In this document: positions 12,686 to 31,540 of the stretch, piece after piece
How positions within the stretch are numbered: position 1 is the stretch's first letter
Layout of the letters: the number at the start of each line of letters is the position of its first letter
DNA from: Massilicoli timonensis
GTDB taxonomy: Bacteria; Bacillota_I; Bacilli_A; Erysipelotrichales; Erysipelotrichaceae
DNA length: 32,000 nucleotides
Direction: 5' to 3'
NCBI RefSeq assembly: GCF_900199515.1
Contig: NZ_LT963434.1
Span: forward strand, 1,982,180 to 2,014,179
The notes under the pieces: generated by a model
Told to the model about the DNA's origin: nothing
Seen by the model: only the letters and a program-made list of their open reading frames with translations
The model's database searches: none
Made by a program: the position numbers and the translations under genes

Positions 12686-12720
12686 AGGAAAAGGAAATAT
12701 ATTTTATTCCTAAGAAGAAA

Positions 12721-13002
12721 ATGATCAAGGATAATTTTCTTCTTGGATTTTCATTAAAGGAAGTATTATTCATGGCTGTCGTCGGTGCAGTCTTTTTTTA
12801 TACAATACAGCTTTATGATAAAGGACTTGCTTATCAATGGACGGTTTCAGCCATTATATTTATAGGTGCACTTCTTCTCGAAGTGCCGACAACGCAGCAG
12901 AGGTTTCTTGATATTCTGATCAAAGCAGTAAGGTACATTTTTGTACAGAAGCTTTATTTTCAGGATACAAGAAACAAAGAAAAAGGGAAGGTGAAGAAAT
13001 GA
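12721..13002 (+). CDS. PrgI family / VirB3-like small membrane protein
   Basis: 93 aa with N-terminal FLLGFSLKEVLFMAVVGAVFF followed by a second helix (VSAIIFIGALLL). Both size and position upstream of VirB4 are typical of PrgI/VirB3. Confidence 0.7.
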   Translation: MIKDNFLLGFSLKEVLFMAVVGAVFFYTIQLYDKGLAYQWTVSAIIFIGALLLEVPTTQQRFLDILIKAVRYIFVQKLYFQDTRNKEKGKVKK

Positions 13003-13415
13003 TGGAAATGCTTGTACAGATACTCTCTCTTGCAGTCATGACGGCAGTAATAGTCTGCATGTATCTGCAGAGAAAACCGAAAAAAAGAAGGAATGGAGAA
13101 CCGCCTCTGATCGTTGATGTTGAGCTGGCTGAAGAAGATGTCACGCCAACATTGATTCAGGAGCTTATGGCATGCAATCTGGCAATGAAGAGAAGACTGA
13201 TTGCTGTTGCTGAAACAGGAAATACAGATGAATGCGAGGAGCTTCAGCGAAGAATCATGCAGAATAATCAGTTTATTATTGATTTGTTTCAATATGATGG
13301 AAAGCTAAAGGATATGATGAAGAGCAATCAGGAATCGAAACATAAAAAGGATGATAAGGACAATATTCCTGAGCTGAAAAAAGTCATCGGCAGACAGCAG
13401 AGATTGGATGTGTAG
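12999..13415 (+). CDS. hypothetical single-pass membrane protein
   Basis: ATGA overlap with the upstream gene. N-terminal helix ILSLAVMTAVIVCMYL followed by a basic stretch (RKPKKRR). Confidence 0.6.
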   Translation: MMEMLVQILSLAVMTAVIVCMYLQRKPKKRRNGEPPLIVDVELAEEDVTPTLIQELMACNLAMKRRLIAVAETGNTDECEELQRRIMQNNQFIIDLFQYDGKLKDMMKSNQESKHKKDDKDNIPELKKVIGRQQRLDV

Positions 13416-15858: not shown

Positions 15859-15861
15859 TTT

Positions 15862-16800
15862 ATGCAGGAACTGGGCTTAAATGAACTCAAAAAAGTCATG
15901 GTGCTGCCTGTGATTGTCTTTGTTTTTACAGTCTTTATTTTCATTCTGGCAATGAGTTCCTTTGGAGCGTCATCCTCAGAAGAGCTTACATCAGTAAAGG
16001 GGCTTTTAACGACAGAGGAAGGACAAAGACTTTATGAAGAAGTGTGGAAAAAACCGATACAGGAAGTTTATGAGGAAACTCATATCAGCGTTCATATCGC
16101 ATGGGTTATCGTGCCTTCCTGTATGATTGATGATCCTTTCACGATTGGTCATGACAGGGCAAAAGAAATTGTTATGCTGGCAATGGACAGCGAGGGGGAA
16201 GAGTATGTAGAAACATCTCTGGTGAGCTTTGTTGAAAGACTCATAAGCCAGCCAGAATTTAGCGAACTGGATAAGGAAAAGGTTATTGAAATCATAGAAG
16301 CAAATGAGGAAAGTGCTGATATTACGACAATAGGAAATATTCCGGAAGAGCTGGGGGAATATATGAAATTGAATCTTTCTTTGCCAGTGGAAAAAGGAAG
16401 CTGGTCAGGCATTGGGGATGTTGGAATGTACAATCCATTTGGAGAATGGAGAATGCATTATGGAATGGATATTGCTGTGCCGACCGGCACTCCTCTCTAT
16501 GCTGCTGCTGATGCAACTGTTGAAGTGGTTTATCATTCGGAAACCGGCGGAAATACAATCATGATGCGTAATGGAACGCTTATTATCATATATTGTCATA
16601 TGAGAGAACTGTCATTTTTAAAATCCGGTGATACAGTAAAAGCTGGTGATCTTGTAGGATATAGCGGAGCCACCGGACGTGTAACAGGACCTCATCTTCA
16701 TTTTGAAACTTGGTCATCTGATGTTGCAGATGTAAGAGAAGGCTATAGCTATAAGGATAGTATTTTCTTTAACCCACGACTGCTTTGGAATTTTGATTGA
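15862..16800 (+). CDS. membrane-anchored M23 family metallopeptidase (T4SS peptidoglycan hydrolase)
   Basis: N-terminal helix VMVLPVIVFVFTVFIFILAM. M23 motifs: HYGMDIAVPTGTPLYAAADATV and GYSGATGRVTGPHLHFE. Confidence 0.9.
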   Translation: MQELGLNELKKVMVLPVIVFVFTVFIFILAMSSFGASSSEELTSVKGLLTTEEGQRLYEEVWKKPIQEVYEETHISVHIAWVIVPSCMIDDPFTIGHDRAKEIVMLAMDSEGEEYVETSLVSFVERLISQPEFSELDKEKVIEIIEANEESADITTIGNIPEELGEYMKLNLSLPVEKGSWSGIGDVGMYNPFGEWRMHYGMDIAVPTGTPLYAAADATVEVVYHSETGGNTIMMRNGTLIIIYCHMRELSFLKSGDTVKAGDLVGYSGATGRVTGPHLHFETWSSDVADVREGYSYKDSIFFNPRLLWNFD

Positions 16801-19581: not shown

Positions 19582-19594
19582 ATTGAATGAACAT

Positions 19595-19628: not shown

Positions 19629-19632
19629 GATG

Positions 19633-19673: not shown

Positions 19674-19684
19674 AAATTTAAGGA

Positions 19685-20290
19685 TTGGAGGAAAAGATCA
19701 AAGAGGAAACTTTTAAAATTGGAGATGTAATCCATGCACTTAGAACCAGAAACAAACTGAAACAGGAAGAACTTGCAATCATGACCGGACTTCCCAGATC
19801 AGTTATTTCTGCACATGAAACAGGACGCAGAACACCGACGAAATATCATATTCAAAAATACAATGAAGCCTTTGGATATGATATTACGGAATTTGCTCCT
19901 TTGGAAAAGAAGATGCCAATGACATCCAGATCCATTCGATTGCCTGAACAGTTATACTCTGAAATTAAAAGGGAAGCAGAAAAAAATGAAATGGATGTTT
20001 CCCAATACATTCGCATGATTCTGGAAAAAGGAATCCATGAAGAGTATATAACCAAATCAATGGATACAATCATTGTGATGATACAGGAAGCAGTTAGTCG
20101 AGCCATGAAAAAAGATATACAGCATAATCGTGAAATTCCAATTCAGATGCTTGAATGCATTTATATGGTCAAATATCTCATGAGAGAATCCTTGCATCTA
20201 AGCAGCATTGAAATTGATACATTAGTTGAAGACATCAGACACATGGCTAGGGAAGATTTTTATAGAAGAAAAGGAAAGGGTGATTCATGA
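19685..20290 (+). CDS. XRE-family helix-turn-helix protein fused to a ribbon-helix-helix (CopG/Arc-like) module
   Basis: HTH: IGDVIHALRTRNKLKQEELAIMTGLPRSVISAHETGRRTP. RHH: RSIRLPEQLYSEIKREAEKNEMDVSQYIRMILEKG. The start is uncertain: TTG 19685 has no spacer after AAGGA, while GGAGG at 19687-19691 precedes an in-frame ATC at 19697. Confidence 0.8.
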   Translation: MEEKIKEETFKIGDVIHALRTRNKLKQEELAIMTGLPRSVISAHETGRRTPTKYHIQKYNEAFGYDITEFAPLEKKMPMTSRSIRLPEQLYSEIKREAEKNEMDVSQYIRMILEKGIHEEYITKSMDTIIVMIQEAVSRAMKKDIQHNREIPIQMLECIYMVKYLMRESLHLSSIEIDTLVEDIRHMAREDFYRRKGKGDS

Positions 20291-20336
20291 AACAATATAA
20301 GTTTCAAAGCGAAGAAATAGAAAGTGGTGTGGATAT

Positions 20337-21287
20337 ATGAAAGTTCTGATAGTAGAGCCAGACAAGCTTCCATACCTTAAGGATATCAGGCAGGATTTAA
20401 GCACATATAGAGAAATAGTGGGCGGAAGTATTCAATGTACCTATCCATTTGAGGATATGGTTGGACTTGTATGCAATGATGAAGGAAAACTGGAAGGTCT
20501 TCCTTTGAATCGAGCACTTAGAACACGTGATGGAAATATCTATGATATTGTAGCTGGAACGTTTTTTATCTGTGGCTTATCAGAAGAGGATTTTACTGAT
20601 CTCAGTGATTATCAGGCAGCAAAATTCTATGAAAGATTTAAGAGCCCTGAAGTTCATTTTTATGGTCTGAATGGTCTGGAGACAAAAAAATATATGAAAA
20701 GAAATATTGAAAAAGAACTGTTTGAACCGGGTAAAAATGAAACTGTTGATTCAATTCTGGAACGAAGCGGTTTTAAACTATTGAATTCCAAGCCTGTACA
20801 TGAATGCACTGAAGCCGAAGAAAAGATTCACAATAAAGAAATAATTGGAATGCTGGAAAAATTATCTGATATTTCAGAATTTGAAAAATCAGTTATCGCA
20901 AAGATAGAGCGATATGATATCGCCAAGCGTCATGAAACAAGCTATTTTGCTTTTGCTGATGTTCATGCCATGCAGGATTTTATTATGAATCAGTATGATA
21001 TAAAAAATGGCATGGACATTGGAATCAGTCCAGATGGCGGACTGGCTATGGCAGCTTATGGCTCTGGATATGAAATCAATCATCATTATGATTTGATCAA
21101 GCACCGTATGACATTTCATCCGCTTGATTTTACCGTAGATGATTCTATAGGATTTTCGGACTGGCTTGTATATGAGAATACACAGAAAATAGACATAGAA
21201 CACGAACTACAGGAAATCGGCAGTCGTGCAAGAGAAACAGTTCAGCGCAGTTCAAAAAACAAAGCTAAAGAAGAAAGAAGCCGTTAG
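20337..21287 (+). CDS. DUF3846 domain protein with a C-terminal extension of unknown function
   Basis: N-terminus MKVLIVEPDKLPYLKDI...REIVGGSIQCTYPFEDMVGLVCNDEGKLEGLPLNRAL...YDIVAGTFFICG matches the DUF3846 pattern common in clostridial conjugative elements. Confidence 0.8.
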   Translation: MKVLIVEPDKLPYLKDIRQDLSTYREIVGGSIQCTYPFEDMVGLVCNDEGKLEGLPLNRALRTRDGNIYDIVAGTFFICGLSEEDFTDLSDYQAAKFYERFKSPEVHFYGLNGLETKKYMKRNIEKELFEPGKNETVDSILERSGFKLLNSKPVHECTEAEEKIHNKEIIGMLEKLSDISEFEKSVIAKIERYDIAKRHETSYFAFADVHAMQDFIMNQYDIKNGMDIGISPDGGLAMAAYGSGYEINHHYDLIKHRMTFHPLDFTVDDSIGFSDWLVYENTQKIDIEHELQEIGSRARETVQRSSKNKAKEERSR

Positions 21288-21299
21288 CGAGGTGCCTTA

Positions 21300-22559
21300 A
21301 TGAGTACCTTGTTTTTTAATACAAAATATAAGAAGATTTCCGGAATTACAGATTTTGATAAATGCATTGGATATTATGACCGTGATGATCGTGCCGATAA
21401 GAACCAGCTTTCAATGATGAAAGATGATGAAGCAAATGATATGTTCTCATATTATTTCTATCGTAAAGGAAGCAGCGGATGTTTTGATTTTCAGGGTGAT
21501 AAATCCTATGAAGATATCATGGAGGAATATCAGAATCATAAGCCGACATATATCTGGCAGAGTGTCATTTCCTTTACTAAAGAAGATGCTGCTGATTTTG
21601 GATTGAAGGATAAACGTGATTTTGCTGCACTGACAAGGAAAGTGGTTGTGAAGATGGCACAGGAGAAAAATATTCCATTGAAGGATGTCGCATGGGGTGG
21701 ATTCTATCATGTCAATACAGATCATCCTCATGTGCATTTCTACTTTTATGATAAAAGAAATCCGATTGACAATACACTTTTTTCTTCAAGAAGCATCAGC
21801 AGGATACGAGCTGCCATTGCCAGAGAAGCTGTTGACAGAAGTCTGCTGCTGAAAGGAAAGGAAGATGCTTCCAGACAGGTGCTTCTTCATATGAGAGAAA
21901 TCATCAATGATGACAAGCTTTTAAAAGAGCTTCAGTCATATCGAACGCTCAGGACAATAGAAGTGCAGAGATATGTAAATCCAAAATTTCATCTGACAAA
22001 GGAATTCTTTGACCAGTTTCAGAAACTGAATGAAATGCTGCCAACAACTGGACGACTGTCTTATAATGCCCATGCTTTGGAACCATATCTGAATGAAATT
22101 GACCATATGATTGAAATCATGCTGAAGCAAAAGGGACTAGCTGATGATTATCGTACTTACAGCAATATGCTGAAGGAAGTCTACCACTCCAATGAAGAAC
22201 TATATGGCAGCGGAGAACGACAATTGCAGTATCTAGATGATCAGAAGAAAAGATTATATGCCAGTCTGGGAAATTCCATACTGAAAATGCTGAAAGTATA
22301 TCGTCAGAGTGTCAGTGAACAGCCTATTATGCGATTTTCAAGGTTTCTGGCTGCAAAAGATATACGCAGGGAAACCAAAAAACTTGTGAGATGTCATGGA
22401 TATGATCTGATGCGTTTTTCTTTCTACTCTATGAAACATGAACTGTCGCAGCTTCGTCAGATGCAGCGAATTCGAGAGAGAAACCAGAGAATGATGATAA
22501 GAGAAACGGAAAAGGAACGTGAGGAGAGAGAATATGAAGAGGAACATAGAAATACATGA
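21300..22559 (+). CDS. conjugative relaxase, MOBP-like (RP4 TraI-type histidine motif)
   Basis: His motif HVNTDHPHVHFYFY (21708-21737) aligns with my recollection of RP4 TraI HTDTDNLHIH. N-terminal tyrosines Y25/Y26 (CIGYYDRDD) are catalytic-Tyr candidates. SD GAGGTG precedes the ATG. Located between DUF3846 and VirD4. Confidence 0.85.
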   Translation: MSTLFFNTKYKKISGITDFDKCIGYYDRDDRADKNQLSMMKDDEANDMFSYYFYRKGSSGCFDFQGDKSYEDIMEEYQNHKPTYIWQSVISFTKEDAADFGLKDKRDFAALTRKVVVKMAQEKNIPLKDVAWGGFYHVNTDHPHVHFYFYDKRNPIDNTLFSSRSISRIRAAIAREAVDRSLLLKGKEDASRQVLLHMREIINDDKLLKELQSYRTLRTIEVQRYVNPKFHLTKEFFDQFQKLNEMLPTTGRLSYNAHALEPYLNEIDHMIEIMLKQKGLADDYRTYSNMLKEVYHSNEELYGSGERQLQYLDDQKKRLYASLGNSILKMLKVYRQSVSEQPIMRFSRFLAAKDIRRETKKLVRCHGYDLMRFSFYSMKHELSQLRQMQRIRERNQRMMIRETEKEREEREYEEEHRNT

Positions 22560-22944
22560 TGTCCGATACATGATGACCTTAAAAGATATGCGAAGGAATA
22601 TCTGTTTTCGTGTATATGATTACTTTGGTCTGGATTGTCTGGAAATGATAAATAACAGACTGATGCACAGTGAATATAATCTTGACAGTACGTTTCTCTC
22701 TTATCTGAATGACCCATCCATCCGCATTGTATCTATGAGGATGGAGTGCATTGATGTACTGATGTTCAATCTTCTGCTTGAAATCAAATCAGGAATGATT
22801 ACACCTGATTTCATTGGCTATAACAGCAGAGGAATTGCTAAGCTTCTTTCATACTGTGGGAGACATCGTGAAACCAGAAGAAAAAAACTGAATCGTTATG
22901 TTATCCATTATCTTAATCATAGGATGCCAAAAAGAGGAGGATAA
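22534..22944 (+). CDS. hypothetical protein
   Basis: The track starts at GTG 22519, but the ATG at 22534 follows SD GAGGAGAGAG. Overlaps the relaxase 3' end by 26 nt. No motif recognised. Confidence 0.6.
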   Translation: MKRNIEIHDVRYMMTLKDMRRNICFRVYDYFGLDCLEMINNRLMHSEYNLDSTFLSYLNDPSIRIVSMRMECIDVLMFNLLLEIKSGMITPDFIGYNSRGIAKLLSYCGRHRETRRKKLNRYVIHYLNHRMPKRGG

Positions 22945-24366
22945 ATGAAATTGAGAAAGATAGAAGAAAACAGGATGTATATCGATCTGATTCATGGTCG
23001 TAAATTCAATAAAGGTCAGCGTGAATCCATCAGAAATGCTATTGCATCCGGACTAAATATGACGGTGCTAAAACAGCTTGTTTCAGAAAATTACAGCAGT
23101 CAGCATATAAATGAATTTGTACGTTTTTTTAAGAATGCTACATATAAGGATAACAAAACTCTGTATGCAATGTTTCGTAATCCTGATACGGAAATCGCAG
23201 TTCTGGATGAAATCAACAAGGGTCTTGAAGATGGAATGGATGAATCACGCATACTCCTGTACGCTCAGCCTAAGGTATATAGAGCGGATCAGATGGAAGA
23301 ACTTCGACTTTTTCTGAAACAGAATTCCTACACTGACGAATACTATGGCTATATATTCGATAGGGAAAAGTCGGCTGAATCAATGAAGGCTATACGCAGT
23401 GCCTGCATGATGGAGATTCCTTTTGAAGAAATCAGCTCTTTTGACTGTTATTCAAAGCTTTATCCAGCAATGATACATGCACTGACAGAAGGAATTCTTC
23501 CACAAGAAGTTCATATGATACTTGAAGTAACAGATGAGCCAAATGAATTCAATACTATCGTCAAAGGTATTTCTTTGGGATTAGATGATGAAGAAATCAA
23601 AGCGTTTCTGATGCCTGACATGAAGCATCTGGAATTTCATCTAGATCTGATGGGCGAAGTCCATGATACTGGTTTTGTGAAAAAGGTAGCGAATATCAGT
23701 GAGCTTGACAGAAGAGAACTTGTAGAAGGATTTGAAAGTGAAAAAAACTTTGAAGACTATCTGCTGCATCTTTATGGATTTTCAAAAATGGATAAGGATG
23801 AACAGATTGATGTTTTTTTGAGCGAAGCAGGAAAAATAAAAGAGAGCCGTCTTCTAGAATCAGGTTATCTGGAATCGTATATTGATGGTGCACTTCGTGA
23901 TGAGAAACGATTAAGAAAACTGGCATTGAATGGATATCTGTTAGAAGCTGTTTCTGAAGCATACCATATAGATCAGTTTCATCTTGATAGAGTTTCATTT
24001 CATCAAATTCTGGAGGACGTCTGCATGGAAAAATATGCAACATTGATTTCACAGAGAGAAACAATGACCTATTTTTTGAATCATTCCTTTAATATTCTGG
24101 AACTGATGAATGAGAATCTGCAAACCATCACGAAAGGCGATGGAATTTTGACTTTTGATATAAATGAGAACTTTAAGGTATTTCTTAAGGAGTACAAGGA
24201 CTTTTATGACATTGAGAAAGTTGCAGTAATGTATGGGAAGGATAATGGACAGATATGTGAATTATCAGCTTCTCAGCTGGAGAAGATGGCAAAGGAATCC
24301 AGAAAAATCCGACTTGATAGGGATGCTGAAATATCAAACAGATTGAAGGAAGGACGTGGAATTTGA
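22945..24366 (+). CDS. hypothetical protein with N-terminal helical repeats related to ORF 1263..1931
   Basis: SD GAGGAGG precedes the start. Repeats: NKGQRESIRNAIASGLNMTVLKQL, DTEIAVLDEINKGLEDGMDESRILLYA, RADQMEELRLFLKQN, EFNTIVKGISLGLDDEEIKAFL. Confidence 0.7.
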   Translation: MKLRKIEENRMYIDLIHGRKFNKGQRESIRNAIASGLNMTVLKQLVSENYSSQHINEFVRFFKNATYKDNKTLYAMFRNPDTEIAVLDEINKGLEDGMDESRILLYAQPKVYRADQMEELRLFLKQNSYTDEYYGYIFDREKSAESMKAIRSACMMEIPFEEISSFDCYSKLYPAMIHALTEGILPQEVHMILEVTDEPNEFNTIVKGISLGLDDEEIKAFLMPDMKHLEFHLDLMGEVHDTGFVKKVANISELDRRELVEGFESEKNFEDYLLHLYGFSKMDKDEQIDVFLSEAGKIKESRLLESGYLESYIDGALRDEKRLRKLALNGYLLEAVSEAYHIDQFHLDRVSFHQILEDVCMEKYATLISQRETMTYFLNHSFNILELMNENLQTITKGDGILTFDINENFKVFLKEYKDFYDIEKVAVMYGKDNGQICELSASQLEKMAKESRKIRLDRDAEISNRLKEGRGI

Positions 24367-26510
24367 AAAGATATGCTGGAACAGCATTATCGCTAGCTGT
24401 ACTGCTTTTATTCATTGGACCTATGGTAACGGTATATCTTTTTGACTGTTTTACTTTTTCCATACATCCATTCTATGATTATCTGAATCCGTTATATCTG
24501 TATGTCAAATTATTTTCAGAAACAAAATATCTAGTTGTATGTTTTTGTCTGGATGCAATGATCTTTATGCTGATGACCAGAAGACTAGGCTTTTTGCAGA
24601 ACAGGGATGAGCATGGAAGTGCCAAATGGGCATCTGATCATGAAATCAGCAGAATATTCAATAAGAGATCGCTTTATCGTCTGGGGATGCGAGGCGGAAA
24701 GAAAAGTCCGGGAGGTATGGTTGTAAAGAAGGTTGGACAGACAATTTGGTATGAAATGCAGTGTATTCATTCCATCATCATCGGAACGACGTCATCGGGA
24801 AAGACAAGAAAGACTCTTATTCCATCAATCATGATAGCTTCGCAGGCAGTTTCCAGTGAAGTAAAGGTGCTAAGAATTAAAGTGCTTTCCAGTCGAAAAT
24901 ATGCAAAGCATCTCGAAAGGATGCAATTCATTGAAACGTTCAGGATTGGAAACCTTGATGTTCTGTATTGTCTGATGCAGTGGAAACAGAGAAAACTAAA
25001 GAAGTTATATAAGATTTTTCATCTGGTCTATCCTAAGAAAATCGTAATTGAAAAAGGGAAGCAGATAGATCTGAACAGCTATTTTGACATACGAGATCTT
25101 GAGGATATTAACGTCAGATATTCCTTCGATGGAAATGCTCAGCTGATGGATGAAAGCATTTTGTGCTGTTCATCAGAAGGAAAGATAAGAGTCAGATTAA
25201 AGCTCGATATCAACAAGGAGTCATTCTTTGTCAATGACCCTAAAAAGGAATTATACAAGATGATGAGAAACTATCTGGTAAAGCAGGGATATGATGTCTA
25301 TCTGCTCGACCTCAGAAAACAGTGGACCGGTGATCAGTGGAACCCAATGACTTCAGTTGTTCGATGCCTAAAGGAAAATAAAACTGATGAGGCAGATATG
25401 TATGCGAAAGATATCGCAGCAGCACTCTGCCCGGAGTCTAAAATGTCAGAAAAATTATGGACAGATGGAGAGAGAGCAATTATTACAGCACTTATACTTG
25501 CAGTTGCAGGTGCAGACTGTGATGACAGCCAGAAGAATTTATATACTTGCTATCAGATTCTGAACACATTAGGACAGCCGGATGAAGATGATCATGTAGC
25601 GTTAAATGATTTCTTCAATAATCTTCCGGTGGGCAATGTTGCAAGGACAGCTTTTGGACCGGCAGCATTAGCTACGGACAGAACTCGAATGAGCTTTTAT
25701 GTATCAGCTTCAGCTACTCTTGGTATGTTTTCATCCTCACTGGTTGCTAAACAGACCTCACGCTCCTCATTTGACATTACAAAGTTTTCTTCCAGACCGA
25801 CTGCTATCTTCTTGATTAATCCTGATGAGAAATCAAGCATGGATTCATTGGCACGACTTTTTATAGATGAAATCTATCGTGTGCTGTCATTTGAAGCCAA
25901 TAAAACAGGTGGAAGGCTTCCTAGAAAATTTCATTATTTCTGGGACGAAACAGCTTCAACCGGGAAGCTGAATGACCTTCCCAAGAAGCTTTCCATCTCT
26001 CGTGGACGAAATCAGCAGTGGCATCTTTACCTTCAGGATTTCGGGCAGCTGGAAGAAATTTATGGCAAAGAGGTAACACAGACAATCAAAGCAAACTGCA
26101 ATCTTATGATTTATATTTCTACTCAGAATCTTGAAACAGCTAAGGAAATTTCAGATAAGATTGGGAGCAGGACGATTGAAACGGAAAGTGTGAGTGAGCA
26201 GACCGGAGAGTCGGTATTCATCATGCCGCATGGAAATGTCAGCCGTTCCCTTATGGCGAGACCGCTTCTAAATGCCAATGAACTGATGAAGCTGGAGGAT
26301 GGAAAAGCTGTCGTTATACGCATGCGCATGAATCCTATGCTGACAACACTGCCGGATTGCAGTGAGTATGATTTCTATGATCTTTTGGATTATTATCTGG
26401 AAGAACCGGAAAGACATGATGAAGCACTTATACCATATATTCCTGATATCAAGAATGAATTTGAAATTCCTAAACCGCTGCTGAACATGAGAATGAATAA
26501 AAAGATATAG
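24363..26510 (+). CDS. virD4: VirD4/TraG-family type IV coupling protein with an atypical insertion after the P-loop
   Basis: TTG start overlaps the upstream TGA. Two N-terminal helices. Walker A is IIIGTTSSGKTRK (about 24783-24809). FFVNDPKKELY is the DPKGE-type strand, and Walker B is HYFWDETAS. RGRNQQWHLYLQDFGQLEEIYG is typical of this family. Confidence 0.92.
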   Translation: MKRYAGTALSLAVLLLFIGPMVTVYLFDCFTFSIHPFYDYLNPLYLYVKLFSETKYLVVCFCLDAMIFMLMTRRLGFLQNRDEHGSAKWASDHEISRIFNKRSLYRLGMRGGKKSPGGMVVKKVGQTIWYEMQCIHSIIIGTTSSGKTRKTLIPSIMIASQAVSSEVKVLRIKVLSSRKYAKHLERMQFIETFRIGNLDVLYCLMQWKQRKLKKLYKIFHLVYPKKIVIEKGKQIDLNSYFDIRDLEDINVRYSFDGNAQLMDESILCCSSEGKIRVRLKLDINKESFFVNDPKKELYKMMRNYLVKQGYDVYLLDLRKQWTGDQWNPMTSVVRCLKENKTDEADMYAKDIAAALCPESKMSEKLWTDGERAIITALILAVAGADCDDSQKNLYTCYQILNTLGQPDEDDHVALNDFFNNLPVGNVARTAFGPAALATDRTRMSFYVSASATLGMFSSSLVAKQTSRSSFDITKFSSRPTAIFLINPDEKSSMDSLARLFIDEIYRVLSFEANKTGGRLPRKFHYFWDETASTGKLNDLPKKLSISRGRNQQWHLYLQDFGQLEEIYGKEVTQTIKANCNLMIYISTQNLETAKEISDKIGSRTIETESVSEQTGESVFIMPHGNVSRSLMARPLLNANELMKLEDGKAVVIRMRMNPMLTTLPDCSEYDFYDLLDYYLEEPERHDEALIPYIPDIKNEFEIPKPLLNMRMNKKI

Positions 26511-26524
26511 GAAGGTGATGCAAA

Positions 26525-27088
26525 ATGGATAATGGTAAATTCAATAAGATAAATACCCTGCTTGAGAAAAAAAGACTGATTGTTGATACAATCCTGCCTG
26601 ACGGTAACATCTTTCAGGTTTATGGCAGAAACGTTCCTCTTGAACTGGGAAAAGATGAAATCCTTATAATCAAAAGAGGAATGGATCAAAGAGAAACACT
26701 TGTTTATCAGGGATTATATACAAAAGAAATGAAAAGAGTACTTGATGAAATGCTTACAATTGGCGGCATAACAGGTATAGATAAATATGGTGAACCGATT
26801 TATGAACGAGGAACAACTGAGCAGGGTTTTGTCTATAAGAATATGTGGGCATATCTGAATCATTCTGATGAAGTCTGCTATATTCCCGAATTGAGTGATG
26901 ACCCGTATTGTTATCGTGACTTTATGAATATCTGCGGGTATGAAAAGGTTGCAGATGAGGTGTTTGGCACTGTGGACTGGCAGAGCCCGGAAGCCTATTT
27001 TAATGAACTGCAGGAAGATGAGGATTATTATAATCATTTGATAAAGGATAGCAGGAAGGAGAAAACTGTGGATGAAAGAAGCAGATAG
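26525..27088 (+). CDS. hypothetical protein
   Basis: SD GGAAGGTGA precedes the start. 187 aa. Shares GFVYKNM (26825-26845) with the first ORF of the window. Acidic C-terminus. Confidence 0.65.
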   Translation: MDNGKFNKINTLLEKKRLIVDTILPDGNIFQVYGRNVPLELGKDEILIIKRGMDQRETLVYQGLYTKEMKRVLDEMLTIGGITGIDKYGEPIYERGTTEQGFVYKNMWAYLNHSDEVCYIPELSDDPYCYRDFMNICGYEKVADEVFGTVDWQSPEAYFNELQEDEDYYNHLIKDSRKEKTVDERSR

Positions 27089-27818
27089 AACGGATATGGA
27101 CTACTGCAGAGAAATCGCAAAGCATTTTCTGTATATGGATGTTGAAACAAATCATCCGCTTGGAAGACCGTTTATCTATCATCCATATGCTAAATCAGAA
27201 TTTATTATTGATGAAAATGGAAATTTGAACAGCATTGTAGATGATACAGATACATTGGATTATTTTCGTCAGACTATTCTCAAAAGAATAGATAATACTG
27301 ATAGCTATACAGGATTCATATCTGTTTTATGCGATACCTACTTTATGGCTTTTCTAAGATTTACAAAAGATCATGTATCTAAAAAAGATCTATCTCTTTA
27401 TCTGCATCAGGCATGGATAAGCTGCGAATTTCCCAATGCTGATGCAAATCTGAAGAAAAGCCAGTTAGTGAAACTATTCAAAAAGACTGATCCTCGATAT
27501 TTAATGAATGAAGAGGATCTTGAGATGTATGGTTCATTTCAGGATATTCTTACTGTATATAGGGGAACAGGACAAAAAGATAATCAGCATGAAGCTCTTT
27601 CATGGACACTTGACAAAAAGACAGCTGAATGGTTTGCAACCCGATTCAGTGAACATGGATACGTATATCAGGCAAAGATACATAAGAAAGATGTCTTTGC
27701 CTTTTTTAACGGCCGAAATGAACAGGAGATTGTGCTGGATTACAGAAGTCTGCGAGATATATGCAGAAAAAAGGTAAAAAGAAAGGAGAGAAAAAGAAGC
27801 CTTGAGCTTCAGAAATGA
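27072..27818 (+). CDS. hypothetical protein with a C-terminal ADP-ribosyltransferase-like R-S-ExE motif set (tentative)
   Basis: SD AGGAAGGAGAA precedes the start, which overlaps the upstream gene by 17 nt. Motifs: VYRG (R164, 27561-27563), LSWT (S177, 27600-27602), NEQEIVLD (E217/E219, 27720-27728). Basic tail KKVKRKERKR. Confidence 0.7.
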   Translation: MKEADRTDMDYCREIAKHFLYMDVETNHPLGRPFIYHPYAKSEFIIDENGNLNSIVDDTDTLDYFRQTILKRIDNTDSYTGFISVLCDTYFMAFLRFTKDHVSKKDLSLYLHQAWISCEFPNADANLKKSQLVKLFKKTDPRYLMNEEDLEMYGSFQDILTVYRGTGQKDNQHEALSWTLDKKTAEWFATRFSEHGYVYQAKIHKKDVFAFFNGRNEQEIVLDYRSLRDICRKKVKRKERKRSLELQK

Positions 27819-28326
27819 TATGGCAAAAATAGGAAAAATTGAACTTATGAATTTAAAGGAAACCGATAAGGAACTGGAAGCAGATCTAATGTTGAATCAT
27901 GTCTATGTCGGAATGATAGTGATGAAACAGATGAATGATCATTGCAGCGGTATGGAGATAACGATAGGTAAGGAATATATATCTGCTGTTGAAAAGGAGG
28001 CTGAAAAATGTGTGAGGGCAGTAGGCTTTAAGAATTTTTCCAAAGGAAGAGCATTGTCCCTGCTGGCAAAATATATGCTTGGAATGGCGATACAGGAAAG
28101 AAGATATCAGGAAATCCAGTTATCATACGGTCTTGATTACTATCTGGAAGTCATATACAAAAATGATGGTCTAGCAATCTTGCCAGGGAGTGATAAAAAT
28201 ATACTGGATTTTATTGCAGTGATGCTGGATGCTGATGACTCCGTTGATTCAGTGAAGGTTGTTGGAGAAGATACCTTTACAATTGATGTTGATGAAAAGC
28301 ACACTGATGAAAGATATTTTAATTAG
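27802..28326 (+). CDS. hypothetical protein
   Basis: TTG 27802 lies 11 nt after SD AAAGGAGAG; an alternative in-frame ATG is at 27820. 174 aa, no motif recognised. Confidence 0.6.
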   Translation: MSFRNDMAKIGKIELMNLKETDKELEADLMLNHVYVGMIVMKQMNDHCSGMEITIGKEYISAVEKEAEKCVRAVGFKNFSKGRALSLLAKYMLGMAIQERRYQEIQLSYGLDYYLEVIYKNDGLAILPGSDKNILDFIAVMLDADDSVDSVKVVGEDTFTIDVDEKHTDERYFN

Positions 28327-28335
28327 GGAAAAGGA

Positions 28336-29313
28336 GTGATTGAGATAGCAGTTGACAAAACTAAAATTGACGAGCTTCTGAGAAAGAGAGATACAAAGAA
28401 AGATATCTATACCGCACATTCTGAAAAAGAAAATGAATATGTGCAAATGATACAGCCTGTGAGTAAGATTGATGAACCACTGACAATCATTATATGCAGT
28501 GAGGAAAAAGAAAATCAGTATACAGAAATCAGAGATACCTTAGAAAATGTGCTGACTTGCAGTGATATCAGATATCTGAACAGTGTCAATCATCTGGATA
28601 ATGTCAGAAGCCTGATTCTTGATTATTCTTCTTTTACAGATGCTAGTGAAGTTGCCTTTTTGATAAAGGTTTTTGAACTGCTGCACAGGAAAGCTGACAT
28701 TGTTATAGCATATGAGGAGTATACAGAAATCTCAAAGCTGCAAAAAATGATCAGGGATGAAAAAGCAGGGAATCGTGCATATGTTATTCTCTATAAAAAT
28801 CTGAAATCAGATTATGAAAGGCATATGATCATGCTTTCTGAAGCCAAAATACCTAAACAGAAACGAAAACTTCATCTTTCAGGCAGAATGAAAAAGATTA
28901 TGATCATTCTTATGATAGGCATTCTGACACTTCTGTTATTGGCAGGTGGGATTTACTTCTATATGCAGCATAATGTCGGGCAGAACATTCATAACAGGAA
29001 TCTGAATGTTCAGCTGGATATGGGAACAAGTACAATCCTGCCGATAGACAAGATATATGCAGATGATCAGGGATGCCATATCATCGTTGAAGAAATTATC
29101 GAAGGAGAAGAAACGGTGCAAATAGGATTGTACGATCAGGATCAAACAAAGATAGCTGCCGATGTACAGAAAATCGCATGTCCTGAGGAAAAGTGCAACA
29201 GTCACTATGAATTGATTTTCAGCAGAAATGAAGAAGTGAAGTATTATATTCTACAGCTGAGCAATTCCCAGACAACAAGAAATATAGAAATAGATCAGCT
29301 CTATTTCGAGTAA
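28336..29313 (+). CDS. hypothetical single-pass membrane protein
   Basis: 325 aa. About 190-aa N-terminal cytoplasmic part, transmembrane helix IMIILMIGILTLLLLAGGIYFYM, and about 110-aa C-terminal part. The start is uncertain because GTG 28336 overlaps the AAGGAG. Confidence 0.65.
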   Translation: MIEIAVDKTKIDELLRKRDTKKDIYTAHSEKENEYVQMIQPVSKIDEPLTIIICSEEKENQYTEIRDTLENVLTCSDIRYLNSVNHLDNVRSLILDYSSFTDASEVAFLIKVFELLHRKADIVIAYEEYTEISKLQKMIRDEKAGNRAYVILYKNLKSDYERHMIMLSEAKIPKQKRKLHLSGRMKKIMIILMIGILTLLLLAGGIYFYMQHNVGQNIHNRNLNVQLDMGTSTILPIDKIYADDQGCHIIVEEIIEGEETVQIGLYDQDQTKIAADVQKIACPEEKCNSHYELIFSRNEEVKYYILQLSNSQTTRNIEIDQLYFE

Positions 29314-29329
29314 AGACGAGGAGGAATAA

Positions 29330-30433
29330 TTGAATTTCAAAATTACGAAGAAACAGATCAATACAGTAATGGGTCATATATCGAAACTGTTTTCCGTAAC
29401 AGTCATTCTGCCCATATATCATTCTATCTTACTGGAAGTCAAAGAGAATGGAATCATAGTAACGGTAACAGATGGTACAGTCAGCATGAGAGAGTTCATT
29501 CAAGATGAGATTACCGTTTACGAAACAGGAAGCTGCGCCATTGATGGAAGGCTTTTTTATGATATTGTCAAAAAGGCGAATGATACAGTCATATGGATAC
29601 GTCAGGAAAATCATCAGCTGAAGCTCAAAAGCGACAAGGCGGAGATGAAGCTTGTCACTATTGATAGTGAGGCATTTCCACATATCAGCTTTGATTATCC
29701 CAAGACAAGATTCCAGATATATTCCAGAATGCTGACAGAAGCAATAAATAAGACAATTTTTTCAGCCAATGACCAGCAGACGCGACCTGTCCTTGGCGGA
29801 CTGAACTTCAAGGTTAATCAAGATAAGTGCATCATAACTGGAACAGATTCTTATCGATTGTCTCAGGTTGCCAGACCAGTTATCAGCAGCAACGAGATAT
29901 GCATTACGATTCCAAAGAAAATGCTGGGTATGCAGACAGCTTTGTTTGATGAAGACGAGGAACTGTATATCTATTTTGATGAGCACAAGGCATTGATGGC
30001 AAACGACGATATCATCATTCAAAGTGTTCTATTGGATGGAGTATTTCCTGATACGGAACTTCTGATACCAAAGCATTTTGATACAGAAATTTATTTCAAT
30101 CGCATGGCACTTCTGGAAGCTTTGGATAGAACATCCTTTTGTCGTGATGATGGCATTACGATTGTTACCTTTGACCTTCTTAATGATGAGATTGTTCTGA
30201 CAACAGAATCCAAAGAGATAGGTTCCTCTATAGAATCTATTTCTTATGAGAACGTATCAGGAAATAGAAAAGTCCATTTTTCATGTAATCAGCAGTATAT
30301 GATAGAAGCATTAAAGGCTTTTGATACACAAGTATGTGTTCTTCATTTCAATGAAGATTTGAAACCGTTCATTCTTACGGACAGTCAGGATGAAAGCCAT
30401 ATTCAATTGCTTCTGCCTACCAGAAGACATTAG
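29330..30433 (+). CDS. dnaN: DNA polymerase III beta subunit (sliding clamp) homologue encoded by the element
   Basis: TTG start 4 nt after SD GAGGAGGA. 367 aa, which is full clamp length. Collinear with my recollection of Bacillus DnaN: QTRPVLGGLNFKV...TGTDSYRLS; LLDGVFPDTELLIPKHFDTEI...LEALDRTSF; CNQQYMIEALKAF; KPFILTD...IQLLLPTRRH. Confidence 0.9.
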   Translation: MNFKITKKQINTVMGHISKLFSVTVILPIYHSILLEVKENGIIVTVTDGTVSMREFIQDEITVYETGSCAIDGRLFYDIVKKANDTVIWIRQENHQLKLKSDKAEMKLVTIDSEAFPHISFDYPKTRFQIYSRMLTEAINKTIFSANDQQTRPVLGGLNFKVNQDKCIITGTDSYRLSQVARPVISSNEICITIPKKMLGMQTALFDEDEELYIYFDEHKALMANDDIIIQSVLLDGVFPDTELLIPKHFDTEIYFNRMALLEALDRTSFCRDDGITIVTFDLLNDEIVLTTESKEIGSSIESISYENVSGNRKVHFSCNQQYMIEALKAFDTQVCVLHFNEDLKPFILTDSQDESHIQLLLPTRRH

Positions 30434-30442
30434 GGGTGATTG

Positions 30443-31540
30443 ATGTTGGAAAATACAATTGATTATAGAAATGTTTTTGGCAATCGTGAAGAGCAGCTGC
30501 TTCATTTTATGATGGATGACTTTACATATGGAATCATTCGCAACAGATATTCCAGACAGCAATCGGACTATCTGATGAAAAAATATATTGATGATCGCTT
30601 CTATACCCTACATATATTTGAAAATAGCGGGCTCTTGCTAAGAAAAGAGAAGGAATTTGTCGGACTGGTAGATATGAAAGAAAATGTTTTATATTGCAAC
30701 TATTATGGGATGCATAACTATAAGAGGATTCAAGAGGAGTTTACATTGAAGGCAAATGGTATTGAAGGCATAGAAGCAGATATTGAAAAAAGGGTTAATG
30801 AACAATTGAAGAATCTGATTTTTGATAGACGCCATGATCTTGCTAGTCATCGTATCGAAAATGAGGACTATGAACATATGAATACGATTGCCAGAAGAAA
30901 AGCATTGCGTATGTTTATGAAAGAGCCTGATTTTCATAACAAGATGGATGAAAAGACATTGCTTGATTACATGCATGACGAAGATGATTATTTCTTTGAT
31001 CTTGTGAAATCTGAAATGACCTTAAGTGATGATGATATTATTTCTTCATTTTATGATATGAATAAAATCGTTGCTGAAAAGGCGGAAGAGGCTTTTCATA
31101 ATGATAAAATTTTTAAATATCTTTCAAGAAAAGTATATAGAGCATTTAGGACATTGGACGTAATGGATGAAATTATACAGAACCGAAACCATGAATATGA
31201 TCAGTTCTATAAAAGACGAAAAATGATCATGTCGCTGTCAGATATAAATGCTAAAAATGTATCTGTTACAATTGAATACGATAATGATAGAATGACATTC
31301 AAATATGACAGAGAAAAGCTGATTCGCGAAATGTCTGATCCTACACTTATGGACAGTTTCAATTTTGGAAAGGCATTTGAACCTGTCAGGGAGTTTGTCG
31401 AAAACCATAGAAGCGGATACAGAAGCGATTTTGAGTTTTCACATATAGAAAGCATGTCATTCAAAGGAAAGACATTTTATGACAGTAAAGGAACACCTAA
31501 GATGAAGAAAAGAATGACAGAATTAGAAAGAGAAAGATGA
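30443..31540 (+). CDS. hypothetical protein
   Basis: The track starts at TTG 30440; the ATG at 30443 follows SD AGGGGTGA. About 365 aa, helical and charged, with no family recognised. An N-terminal EEQLLHF (30494-30508) weakly resembles a clamp-binding peptide. Confidence 0.65.
   Translation: MLENTIDYRNVFGNREEQLLHFMMDDFTYGIIRNRYSRQQSDYLMKKYIDDRFYTLHIFENSGLLLRKEKEFVGLVDMKENVLYCNYYGMHNYKRIQEEFTLKANGIEGIEADIEKRVNEQLKNLIFDRRHDLASHRIENEDYEHMNTIARRKALRMFMKEPDFHNKMDEKTLLDYMHDEDDYFFDLVKSEMTLSDDDIISSFYDMNKIVAEKAEEAFHNDKIFKYLSRKVYRAFRTLDVMDEIIQNRNHEYDQFYKRRKMIMSLSDINAKNVSVTIEYDNDRMTFKYDREKLIREMSDPTLMDSFNFGKAFEPVREFVENHRSGYRSDFEFSHIESMSFKGKTFYDSKGTPKMKKRMTELERER

What the first reader, a model, noticed from the sequence alone, without database searches (positions are those of the whole stretch)
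29330..30433. Full-length DnaN-type beta sliding clamp encoded inside a conjugative element
The 367-aa product is collinear with bacterial DnaN over all three domains (QTRPVLGGLNFKV, TGTDSYRLS, LLDGVFPDTELLIP, YMIEALKAF, C-terminal IQLLLPTRRH), yet it is clearly diverged. It sits in a block of unknown genes well away from any chromosomal dnaA-dnaN-recF context. Conjugative elements of Bacillota are generally thought to borrow the host clamp for rolling-circle and complementary-strand synthesis. A private clamp could mean host-independent replication or establishment. Alternatively it could act as a decoy that titrates clamp-binding host factors. The immediately downstream protein has EEQLLHF near its N-terminus (30494-30508), a weak resemblance to the QL[SD]LF clamp-binding peptide.
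Basis: partly seen in the sequence, partly recalled or inferred. Interest (0 to 1): 0.7.

Follow-up and report, generated by a model that had tools for sequence, protein, structure and literature searches.

The report
Conjugative element carries its own sliding clamp
An integrative conjugative element of gut Erysipelotrichales bacteria carries its own intact, selectively maintained copy of the DNA-polymerase sliding clamp (DnaN); it most likely supplies extra clamp for the element's own DNA synthesis while still depending on the host's clamp loader and polymerase.

Summary
ORF 29330-30433 (+) encodes a 367-aa, three-domain DnaN. It passes the NCBIfam dnaN equivalog cutoff and models onto the B. 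subtilis clamp at TM 0.96. It lies in a tightly packed plus-strand gene array with a MobP3/MobL relaxase and a VirD4 coupling protein, downstream of the type IV secretion genes.

Relatives end in integrases or serine recombinases. One sits inside a 425-kb Coprobacillaceae chromosomal contig, so this is an ICE.

The ICE clamps form a narrow monophyletic clade on a long branch next to chromosomal Erysipelotrichales DnaNs. They are under purifying selection (dN/dS 0.10-0.13). They keep the peptide-binding pocket, the ring-interface strands and a basic DNA channel.

A search by coupling protein, which avoids DnaN bias, found the clamp in 3 of 4 related elements. It always follows a homologous bitopic membrane protein.

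No polymerase, primase, helicase, SSB or clamp loader was recognised, so host-independent replication is not supported. The proposed clamp-binding motif (EEQLLHF) is not conserved.

Plasmid and phage dnaN genes are already widely annotated, so this is a new member of a known kind. Its function is untested.

The parts
29330..30433 (+). ICE-borne dnaN paralogue: a 367-aa, three-domain beta sliding clamp with a TTG start
   Evidence: Pfam, NCBIfam and PHROG matches. PDB sequence match. AF2 model plus Foldseek, TM 0.96 to 4TR6. dN/dS 0.10-0.13. Pocket, interface and channel conserved.
29318..29324 (+). Shine-Dalgarno sequence GAGGAGG, 5 nt upstream of the TTG start
   Evidence: Read directly from the sequence.
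28336..29313 (+). Conserved upstream partner gene, 325 aa. It encodes a bitopic membrane protein with a disordered N-terminus, a cytoplasmic five-stranded alpha/beta (receiver-like) domain, one TM helix (about 185-211) and an extracellular Ig-like beta-sandwich.
   Evidence: It lies immediately upstream of dnaN in every element examined, including L052 where DnaN is only 30% identical. AF2 model pLDDT 71.6. Only generic fold matches. No Pfam family.
30440..31540 (+). Downstream 366-aa protein of unknown function, variable across the family. It carries the non-conserved EEQLLHF at 30488-30508.
   Evidence: 24-26% identity to L001/L004 counterparts and absent in L002. Motif not conserved. No Pfam, NCBIfam, PHROG, PADLOC or PDB hit.
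24363..26510 (+). VirD4-type type IV coupling protein (CD1115 family)
   Evidence: Pfam T4SS-DNA_transf at E 2e-46. NF045973 at 278 bits against a cutoff of 250.
21300..22559 (+). MobL/MobP3 relaxase
   Evidence: Pfam MobL at E 6e-26. NF041499 MobP3 at 201 bits against a cutoff of 150.
20337..21287 (+). DUF3846 protein directly upstream of the relaxase
   Evidence: Pfam E 2e-35. Conserved in relatives.
19685..20290 (+). HTH_3 plus CopG/RHH regulator at the head of the DNA-processing gene block
   Evidence: Pfam and NCBIfam.
22945..24366 (+). Conserved 473-aa unknown protein between the relaxase and the coupling protein
   Evidence: About 40% identity across the family. No family hit.
26525..28326 (+). 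Three small unknown genes (187, 248 and 174 aa) between the coupling protein and the membrane-protein/dnaN pair. The 248-aa one belongs to PHROG 4776.
11132..16800 (+). Mating-pair-formation core: TrbL/VirB6-like protein, two small genes, VirB4-like ATPase and an M23 peptidase
   Evidence: Pfam and NCBIfam.

Best explanation
This is a working beta sliding clamp that was captured once, long ago, from an Erysipelotrichales-type chromosome by an ICE lineage and has been kept as a near-core gene.

Proposed mechanism:
1. It is transcribed with the relaxase and coupling-protein genes when the element is activated. This is inferred from the tight gene spacing.
2. The protein forms a ring-shaped homodimer.
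3. The HOST clamp loader places it on primed or nicked element DNA, and it tethers the HOST polymerase (PolC or DnaE) through its conserved peptide-binding pocket.
4. This gives the element a dedicated or extra clamp supply. The supply would serve rolling-circle replication from the nicked oriT after excision, replacement-strand synthesis during transfer, and possibly second-strand synthesis and establishment.

It is a supplement to the host replisome, not a private replisome.

Shown here: identity, fold, selection, conserved functional surfaces, ICE context, and phylogenetic origin and distribution.

Inferred: co-transcription, use of the host loader and polymerase, and the benefit to element replication.
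For: 1. It is a bona fide clamp by sequence and fold.
2. Purifying selection: dN/dS is 0.10-0.13 in four pairs.
3. All three surfaces a loaded clamp needs are retained, not only the pocket:
- Pocket residues R152, L155, T172, R176, L177, P242, N320, Y323, P363 and R365 (E. coli numbering) are conserved in all 14 clade members. Their pattern matches that of chromosomal Erysipelotrichales clamps.
- Column conservation within the clade is 0.89 for the pocket and 0.79 for the interface strands, against 0.68 overall.
- The channel helices carry a net charge of +6.5 in an overall acidic protein (-10.6). The chromosomal group shows +4.9 and -12.3.
4. It is about as conserved as the relaxase (54-56% against 57-60%) and far more conserved than neighbouring accessory genes at 24-47%.
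5. Ascertained by coupling protein, DnaN is present at T4CP identities of 78%, 65% and 54%.
6. The ICE clade is monophyletic (93-98.5% bootstrap). L052 is its sister at 79%. The clade groups with chromosomal DnaNs of the presumed host order, and a host was identified as Coprobacillaceae.
7. Gaps between consecutive genes from 19685 to 31540 run from -41 to +46 nt, and from -41 to +16 nt from the relaxase onward. The terminator-like sites listed in this interval lie within or at the edges of coding sequence, and none lies between the coupling-protein gene and dnaN other than inside genes.
8. ICEBs1 rolling-circle replication requires host PolC and DnaN (PMC5812530). Phage lambda raises host dnaN translation to aid its own replication (bioRxiv 10.1101/2024.10.31.621285). 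Clamp supply is therefore a plausible limiting resource for mobile elements.
Against: - There are no experimental data.
- A simple dosage model does not explain the roughly twofold faster evolution.
- It does not explain the 13 class-specific fixed substitutions, several of which flank the pocket (156, 158, 171, 320) or the DNA-contact loop (149, 150).
- It does not explain the deeply conserved pairing with a membrane protein.
- One related element (L053, T4CP 52% identical) has no clamp in the 5 kb available downstream, and more distant relatives have none. The conjugation module can therefore work without it.
- oriT and transfer polarity were not determined, so a donor-side role cannot be separated from a recipient-side role.
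- The part of the element to the left of the window was not seen, so other replication genes cannot be fully excluded.
Confidence: 0.5

Rival explanations
1. Decoy or titrator. The ICE clamp acts mainly by binding host proteins that carry clamp-binding motifs, without needing to support synthesis. Candidate targets are YabA and other DnaA regulators, MutL, translesion polymerases, and possibly defence or repair factors. The effect would be to reprogramme host replication initiation or repair in donors or new transconjugants.
For: The pocket is intact and of the host type, so host clamp-binding proteins should bind it. The gene lies next to typical establishment and counter-defence genes in relatives: orphan N6 methyltransferases, HU, ArdC-N, YodL and SUFU-like proteins. 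Overproducing a clamp-binding protein perturbs DnaA control in E. coli, as shown for Mu MuC (PMC12867686). Several class-specific substitutions surround the pocket.
Against: A pure decoy needs only the pocket. Here the ring-interface strands and the basic inner channel are also conserved. The conserved TTG start argues weakly against the very high expression expected of a titrator. No target is identified.
Confidence: 0.2
2. Spare, resistant clamp. The divergent clamp protects the element and its host against agents that target the host clamp. Such agents include phage clamp inhibitors, clamp-directed toxins and clamp-binding antibiotics. The ICE clamp would escape them while still working with the host replisome.
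For: The clamp is divergent and fast-evolving, with class-specific changes around the pocket. Phage proteins that bind Firmicute clamps exist, for example the Gp168-clamp complex 7EVP among the PDB matches. From my own knowledge, untested here: extra DnaN copies serve as griselimycin self-resistance in Streptomyces.
Against: There is no inhibitor gene, biosynthetic cluster or recognisable defence system next to it. PADLOC finds nothing in 8 neighbouring proteins. The core pocket residues are the same as the host type, so pocket-directed inhibitors would probably still bind. Conserved linkage to the relaxase and coupling-protein block fits an element-replication role better.
Confidence: 0.1
3. 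Partner-specific clamp. The clamp works with an element-encoded partner rather than the host polymerase. Candidates are the conserved upstream membrane protein, the relaxase or another unknown protein. It could couple replacement-strand synthesis to DNA export at the membrane, or activate element transcription as T4 gp45 and Mu MuC do.
For: The membrane-protein/dnaN gene pair is conserved even at 20% and 30% identity respectively. Several substitutions flank the pocket. Clamps have been co-opted for transcription in phages (PMC12867686).
Against: No canonical clamp-binding motif occurs in any element protein. The membrane protein's folds are generic and uninformative. No interaction was tested.
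Confidence: 0.12
4. Inert passenger. The gene is a decaying or neutral chromosomal fragment picked up by the element.
For: It originated from a chromosomal-type DnaN. At least one related element lacks it.
Against: The ORF is intact in all 17-18 clade members. dN/dS is 0.10-0.13. It is retained across element divergence down to 54% T4CP identity. Functional residues are conserved. The start codon and RBS are conserved.
Confidence: 0.03

Closest known systems
Chromosomal replicative DnaN of Bacillota (B. subtilis DnaN, PDB 4TR6; Erysipelotrichales DnaNs P0014-P0091)
   Same: Same three-domain fold (TM 0.96), same length, and the same pocket, interface and channel architecture. It passes the TIGR00663 cutoff.
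   Different: It is not in the dnaA-dnaN-recF-gyrB context (compared with the window). Identity is at most 36%. It lies on a long branch with about twice the root-to-tip distance. It has 13 class-specific fixed substitutions and a C-terminus QLLLP(V/T)R(H/R) instead of L(V/I)LPVRTY.
Plasmid-borne dnaN genes, e.g. B. thuringiensis HD-771 p02 (NC_018501) and Planococcus sp. MB-3u-03 plasmid
   Same: An accessory clamp on a mobile replicon. In Bt p02 it lies about 6 kb downstream of the TraG coupling protein in a run of unknown genes.
   Different: These are an independent capture, forming a separate clade in the tree. No other gene in the neighbourhood is shared. They are paired with a Rad52/Rad22 gene and a ThiF-family gene, not with the membrane protein. 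They sit on plasmids rather than an ICE.
Phage-encoded beta-type clamps (PHROG 947; Rhizobium phage 16-3 p081; Arthrobacter phages)
   Same: A mobile-element-encoded DnaN-family processivity factor. The window protein matches PHROG 947 at E 9e-54.
   Different: Identity is only 22-30%. The context here is conjugative, with no virion genes.
ICEBs1 / Tn916 autonomous rolling-circle replication
   Same: A Bacillota ICE whose relaxase-nicked oriT is expected to serve as a replication origin, so a clamp is required (PMC5812530).
   Different: ICEBs1 supplies only NicK and HelP and uses the host DnaN. This ICE family additionally brings its own clamp, and no HelP-like protein was recognised here.
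Extra dnaN paralogues with specialised roles (Streptomyces GriR griselimycin self-resistance; B. anthracis dnaN2). Recalled from my own knowledge, not tested here.
   Same: A second, divergent beta clamp alongside the essential chromosomal copy.
   Different: No antibiotic biosynthetic cluster is nearby. This one is carried on a self-transmissible element.

Membership tests
DnaN / bacterial beta sliding clamp (TIGR00663; Pfam PF00712+PF02767+PF02768) | Three tandem clamp domains over about 365 aa, scoring above the curated cutoffs | tested here: met
   All three Pfam domains exceed their gathering scores. TIGR00663 scores 240.8 bits against 137.65.
DnaN / bacterial beta sliding clamp | Clamp fold: three topologically identical beta-alpha-beta-beta-beta domains forming a half-ring | tested here: met
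   AF2 pLDDT 92.1. Foldseek gives TM 0.96 and rmsd 1.7 A to B. subtilis clamp 4TR6.
DnaN / bacterial beta sliding clamp | Hydrophobic peptide-binding pocket between domains II and III | tested here: met
   R152, L155, T172, R176, L177, P242, N320, Y323, P363 and R365 equivalents are conserved in all clade members. Pocket column conservation is 0.89.
DnaN / bacterial beta sliding clamp | Head-to-tail homodimer ring | not testable with these tools
   Only a monomer could be modelled. The interface strands are more conserved than average (0.79 against 0.68). Some interface positions differ from the chromosomal type (75, 108).
DnaN / bacterial beta sliding clamp | Basic inner channel for DNA in an acidic protein | tested here: met
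   The channel helices carry a net charge of +8 in the window protein and +6.5 on average in the clade. The whole protein is -16 in the window and -10.6 on average.
DnaN / bacterial beta sliding clamp | Loaded by the clamp loader and confers processivity on Pol III-type polymerases | not testable with these tools
   This needs biochemistry.
Chromosomal replicative dnaN orthologue | Located in the dnaA-dnaN-(S4)-recF-gyrB origin-proximal context | tested here: not met
   The window has T4SS, relaxase and coupling-protein genes instead. The nearest chromosomal homologues do have that context.
Integrative and conjugative element (ICE) | Relaxase, type IV coupling protein and VirB4 ATPase | tested here: met
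   MobP3/MobL relaxase, CD1115-type VirD4 and a VirB4-like ATPase.
Integrative and conjugative element (ICE) | Integrase or recombinase at an element end | tested here: inconclusive
   None lies inside the 32-kb window, which ends before that point. Near-identical relatives L005 and L006 (93-99% protein identity) continue into tyrosine integrases. L004, L013 and L052 continue into serine recombinases.
Integrative and conjugative element (ICE) | Integrated in a host chromosome with flanking host genes | tested here: inconclusive
   This is shown for relatives. L013 lies at 171-193 kb of a 425-kb Coprobacillaceae contig. L052 is followed by PTS and antiterminator genes. It is not shown for the window's own copy, and att sites were not mapped.
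Self-contained (host-independent) element replisome | Element-encoded polymerase and clamp loader (plus or minus primase, helicase, SSB) alongside the clamp | tested here: not met
   None was recognised by Pfam, NCBIfam or PHROGs in the window, or by precomputed Pfam in the downstream flanks of relatives. The region to the left of the window was not seen.
Antibiotic self-resistance DnaN (GriR-type) | Adjacent to a biosynthetic cluster for a clamp-targeting compound | tested here: not met
   No biosynthetic genes occur in the window or in related loci.
Known anti-phage defence systems (PADLOC) | Match to a defence-system protein model | tested here: not met
   No hits for DnaN or for 7 neighbouring proteins.

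The most novel reading that the evidence does not exclude
The clamp and the invariably adjacent bitopic membrane protein form a dedicated two-gene module. That protein has a cytoplasmic receiver-like domain, one TM helix and an extracellular Ig-like domain. The module would tether or regulate DNA synthesis at the conjugation apparatus, coupling replacement-strand rolling-circle synthesis to ssDNA export or licensing it on mating-pair contact. The pocket-flanking substitutions would tune the clamp to an element-encoded partner rather than simply adding to the host clamp pool.
Probability: 0.12. Interest if true: 0.75.

Novelty: new member of a known kind. Interest (0 to 1): 0.42.

Why it matters
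In the best-studied Bacillota ICEs (ICEBs1, Tn916), the element contributes only the relaxase and helicase-processivity factors and borrows the host's PolC, DnaN and SSB. Here a whole ICE lineage of gut Erysipelotrichales has kept its own clamp under purifying selection, with conservation comparable to its relaxase. That suggests clamp availability, or clamp specificity, can limit ICE replication, stability or establishment.

The system is experimentally tractable. A cultured Coprobacillaceae isolate (UN01-12pH3A) carries a family member. It could test whether mobile elements compete with the chromosome for clamps, a theme also emerging for phages such as lambda (raising dnaN translation) and Mu (using the clamp for transcription).

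It also flags an uncharacterised membrane protein that is strictly linked to the clamp. The practical impact is modest: accessory dnaN genes on plasmids and phages are already widely annotated, though essentially unstudied.

Tried and rejected
1. EEQLLHF as a clamp-binding motif: rejected. It is not conserved in orthologues and the gene is absent in L002. A scan for canonical and relaxed clamp-binding motifs in all window proteins gave no QL[SD]LF, only chance-level relaxed matches.
2. Defence-system membership: PADLOC found nothing.
3. Host identification with the single protein in species-representative genomes failed. The clade-profile scan succeeded.
4. Viral-contig scans with the clamp clade found nothing. 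With the coupling protein they found only relatives at 25% identity or less, none with a clamp.
5. The metagenome-contig scan with the coupling-protein alignment returned only 4 distant loci, none with a clamp.
6. Shared neighbourhood with plasmid dnaN loci (Bt p02, Planococcus, L. kefiranofaciens): only DnaN is shared.
7. Function of the upstream membrane protein: no Pfam or NCBIfam hit. The AF2 model has moderate confidence, and Foldseek gave only generic receiver-like and Ig-like matches at E about 1e-3. The afdb50 library was unavailable.
8. Function of the 366-aa and 248-aa neighbours: no Pfam or PDB hits.
9. oriT and transfer polarity: an inverted-repeat search of 17300-21400 found one unremarkable repeat, so polarity was left undetermined.
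10. Looking to the left of the window via the first gene's product: not on record.
11. Rfam and tRNA scans: nothing.
Neither the leading-region paper nor the polyvalent-protein paper mentions clamps.
13. The first bootstrap attempt timed out and was redone with a faster distance routine.
Full report
OBSERVATION. The ORF is at exactly 29330-30433 (+) and encodes 367 aa. It starts with TTG, preceded by a strong Shine-Dalgarno sequence (GAGGAGG, 29318-29324, 5-nt spacer). The protein contains all three Pfam DnaN domains above their gathering scores. It passes the NCBIfam dnaN equivalog model end to end, at 240.8 bits against a cutoff of 137.65. It matches PHROG 947 'processivity factor'. Its best solved-structure relative is B. 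subtilis DnaN 4TR6, at E 5e-48. An AlphaFold2 model built on 36 homologues is confident (pLDDT 92.1, pTM 0.87).

CONTEXT. Every called gene in the window is on the + strand. Recognisable functions, in order, are:
- a CAP-domain protein;
- a 1505-aa NlpC/P60 plus 12x SpaA surface protein;
- a TrbL/VirB6-like protein;
- a VirB4-like ATPase whose best model is the Mycoplasma-ICE Mbov_0397 family;
- an M23 peptidase;
- an AAA-ATPase_like/PDDEXK_9 protein;
- an HTH/RHH regulator;
- a DUF3846 protein;
- a MobL/MobP3 relaxase (201 bits against a cutoff of 150);
- a CD1115-type VirD4 coupling protein (278 bits against 250).

Gaps between consecutive genes from 19685 to 31540 run from -41 to +46 nt. 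The terminator-like sites found in this interval lie within or at the edges of coding sequence. I therefore infer that dnaN is co-transcribed with the DNA-processing genes. No polymerase, primase, helicase, SSB or clamp loader was recognised. Rfam and tRNA scans were empty.

IT IS AN ICE, AND THE CLAMP BELONGS TO IT.
- Homology search found a tight clade of 13 clusters at 49-97% identity, about 170 member sequences, almost all from metagenome or Logan assemblies. Identity then drops sharply to 36% or less.
- Contigs carrying clade members show the same synteny. The order is DUF3846, relaxase, a small gene, a gene of about 450 aa, the coupling protein, 1-4 small genes, a ~320-aa protein, DnaN, variable genes, and finally tyrosine integrases or serine recombinases. 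The variable genes include a ~366-aa unknown, SUFU-like and YodL proteins, N6 methyltransferases and HU.
- A clade-profile scan of species-representative genomes found one member. It shares 54% identity with the window and 94% with L001. It lies at 171-193 kb of a 425-kb contig of the cultured isolate Coprobacillaceae bacterium UN01-12pH3A (order Erysipelotrichales), with identical synteny.
- In L052 the serine recombinase is followed by host PTS genes.
The gene is inside an element that itself integrates.

ORIGIN AND EVOLUTION.
- The nearest non-clade homologues (P0014, P0017) sit in dnaA-dnaN-S4-recF-gyrB-gyrA. Sources name them Erysipelotrichaceae or Solobacterium.
- In NJ trees the ICE clade is monophyletic at 98.5% bootstrap, or 93% with extra taxa. 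It sits on a long stem (0.51) and has about twice the root-to-tip distance of the chromosomal group (1.06 against 0.56). Its exact attachment among the chromosomal sequences is unresolved at 26-42% support.
- The very divergent L052 clamp (30% identity) is sister to the core clade at 79% bootstrap. It shares 5 of the 13 class-specific residues. This fits one old capture followed by co-divergence with the element.
- Clamps on Bacillus, Planococcus and Lactobacillus plasmids fall elsewhere in the tree, so they are independent captures.
- With the clade profile against 1.84 billion 50%-identity representatives, the core clade collapses to one representative (646 bits). The next hits (296 bits or less) have chromosomal-type C-termini. 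The clade is narrow and rare.

IS IT FUNCTIONAL, AND AS WHAT?
- dN/dS is 0.10-0.13 in four pairs.
- Between elements whose coupling proteins are about 70% identical, DnaN is 54-56% identical. That is similar to the relaxase (57-60%) and well above the neighbouring accessory genes (24-47%).
- The peptide-binding pocket is intact in every member and has the same residue pattern as the chromosomal Erysipelotrichales clamps.
- The features a DNA-loaded ring needs are also kept. Interface strands have column conservation 0.79 and the pocket 0.89, against 0.68 overall. The channel helices are net basic (+6.5) in an acidic protein (-10.6), as in chromosomal clamps (+4.9 and -12.3).
- This favours a clamp that is actually loaded on DNA over a pure pocket decoy.
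- Thirteen positions are fixed differently in ICE and chromosomal clamps. Several flank the pocket (156, 158, 171, 320) or the DNA-contact loop (149, 150). Some change in partner or DNA handling is therefore possible.

CORE OR CARGO? All the first loci were found through DnaN itself, so I re-ascertained by coupling protein.
- Contexts at 78%, 65% and 54% T4CP identity all carry a DnaN in the same position.
- One at 52% (L053) has none in the 5 kb available downstream.
- Relatives at 38% or less have none.
- The clamp is thus near-core in this family but not required by the conjugation module as such.

A CONSERVED PARTNER GENE. The gene immediately upstream (28336-29313) is homologous in every element. 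This includes L052 (E 2e-7 to 4e-11), where the clamp itself is only 30% identical. It has just 9 clusters of homologues in 5.8 billion proteins and no family assignment.

The AF2 model (pLDDT 71.6) shows a disordered N-terminus, a five-stranded alpha/beta domain, one TM helix and a C-terminal beta-sandwich. Foldseek returns only generic receiver/CpaE-N-like and Ig-like matches at E about 1e-3. Its role is unexplained. It is the main reason to keep a partner-specific model alive.

- EEQLLHF in the downstream protein is not conserved: orthologues read NREISEF or NQMISEF. The gene is only 24-26% identical in L001 and L004 and is missing in L002. No canonical QL[SD]LF motif exists in any element protein.
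- 'Host-independent replication' is not supported, because the clamp is the only replisome part recognised.
- 'Establishment' remains possible. In relatives the clamp is followed by orphan methyltransferases, HU, ArdC-N, YodL and SUFU-like genes. These are typical establishment or counter-defence genes in Firmicute elements (PMC8708921; PMC5512222). However, neither those papers nor the leading-region survey (PMC11541004) mentions a clamp, and I could not determine oriT or transfer polarity.

BEST EXPLANATION (confidence about 0.5). This is a working beta clamp, expressed with the relaxase and T4CP genes. The host clamp loader loads it, and it tethers the host PolC or DnaE on element DNA. This supplies a dedicated or extra clamp pool for rolling-circle replication from oriT after excision, for replacement-strand synthesis during transfer, and possibly for establishment.

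The precedent logic is as follows. ICEBs1 replication needs host PolC and DnaN (PMC5812530). Lambda raises dnaN translation to help its own replication (bioRxiv 10.1101/2024.10.31.621285).

Rivals:
- decoy or titrator of host clamp-binding proteins (0.2);
- partner-specific clamp working with the membrane protein or another element factor, including replication-coupled transcription as in Mu and T4 (PMC12867686) (0.12);
- spare clamp resistant to clamp-targeting agents (0.1);
- inert passenger (0.03, effectively refuted).

COMPARISON WITH WHAT IS KNOWN, AND NOVELTY. Accessory dnaN genes on mobile replicons are already common in databases.
- 220 PLSDB records carry one (29 typed conjugative, 25 mobilizable), although some look like chromids or mislabelled chromosomes that start with dnaA-dnaN.
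- 76 phage records carry one.
- In B. thuringiensis HD-771 p02, an annotated dnaN lies about 6 kb downstream of TraG, next to a Rad52 gene. The same Rad52-dnaN-...-ThiF block occurs on a Planococcus plasmid. Nothing but the clamp is shared with our element.
- NCBI's pipeline would name this gene 'DNA polymerase III subunit beta' automatically.
- I found no functional study of an ICE- or conjugative-plasmid-encoded clamp in the held literature.

I therefore rate it a new member of a known kind. It is a distinct, narrow, ICE-specific clamp clade with a conserved unknown partner. That is interesting and testable but not categorically new. Interest 0.42.

Noticed in passing
window 27072-27818 (+): This 248-aa protein (PHROG 4776, function unknown) is conserved across the ICE family. 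It carries a Y-R-G ... (S)-W-T ... E-Q-E pattern reminiscent of the R-S-E triad of ADP-ribosyltransferases. YRG and WT are invariant in 5 of 5 orthologues and EQE is present in 4 of 5. There is no Pfam or PDB sequence hit, so this is only a lead.
   Followed up: partly
window 28336-29313 (+) and orthologues in L001, L002, L004, L013, L050, L051, L052: A bitopic membrane protein is strictly linked to the clamp gene. It has a receiver-like cytoplasmic domain, one TM helix and an Ig-like ectodomain. Its N-terminal K-x-K-[IV]-[ND]-[EQ]-[IL]-L helix is conserved, and so is an NRN[LM]NVQLDMG motif just outside the membrane. Only 9 homologue clusters exist in 5.8 billion proteins. Its function is unknown.
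   Followed up: partly
window 13408-15858 and 11132-12685 (+): The VirB4-like ATPase scores best against the Mycoplasma ICE model Mbov_0397 (365 bits, below the 590 cutoff). The TrbL-like protein weakly matches pLS20_p028 and the Mycoplasma MMCAP2_0566 family. This hints that the Erysipelotrichales ICE secretion module is related to Mollicutes ICEs.
   Followed up: no
window 17431-19581: A 500-bp gene-free stretch (17431-17931) contains repeated GATAC/GTATC-type words and the best promoter-like sites in the region, on both strands. It is followed by an AAA-ATPase_like + PD-(D/E)XK_9 gene (17932-19581). Relatives L050-L053 lack this gene at the equivalent position between the M23 peptidase and the relaxase block. 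It looks like an insertion or a variable cargo slot.
   Followed up: partly
window 4472-8989 (+): This 1505-aa protein fuses an N-terminal NlpC/P60 cell-wall hydrolase to about 12 SpaA/prealbumin-like repeats. It is probably a combined peptidoglycan hydrolase and adhesin of the mating apparatus. A related SpaA-repeat protein occurs in L048 and at the end of L002.
   Followed up: no
whole window 1-32000: GC skew is uniformly positive (+0.13 to +0.26 in every 2-kb bin) and AT skew is positive, with all genes on the + strand. This is compatible with purine-rich coding strands, with unidirectional (rolling-circle) replication co-oriented with transcription, or with both. It is not diagnostic.
   Followed up: no
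L012 (NC_018501.1, B. thuringiensis HD-771 p02) 6072-8113; L011 (Planococcus plasmid) 5886-8104: A conserved Rad52/Rad22-dnaN gene pair, followed several genes later by a ThiF-family gene, occurs on unrelated Bacillales plasmids. In Bt p02 it lies just downstream of TraG. This is an independent, equally unstudied case of a clamp in a conjugation-proximal block.
   Followed up: partly
window 29330; L001, L004, L005, L006 dnaN starts: The TTG start codon of the ICE dnaN is conserved in five elements that are only about 55% identical at the protein level. L002 instead has an ATG and a 4-residue N-terminal extension. This may reflect tuned, modest translation.
   Followed up: no
DnaN residues 75, 91, 108, 149, 150, 156, 158, 167, 171, 265, 317, 319, 320 (window numbering): Thirteen positions are fixed to one residue in ICE clamps and to a different residue in chromosomal Erysipelotrichales clamps. 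Several border the peptide pocket (G156, L158, G171, N320) or the DNA-contact loop (Q149, Q150). Two lie in interface regions (L75, L108).
   Followed up: partly
L005 10265-10549, L006 13904-14188, L050 21087-21374, L002 12953-13255: Relatives of this ICE also encode their own HU-like nucleoid protein and two orphan DNA methyltransferases (N6_Mtase, N6_N4_Mtase) between the clamp and the integrases. The window ends before this region.
   Followed up: no
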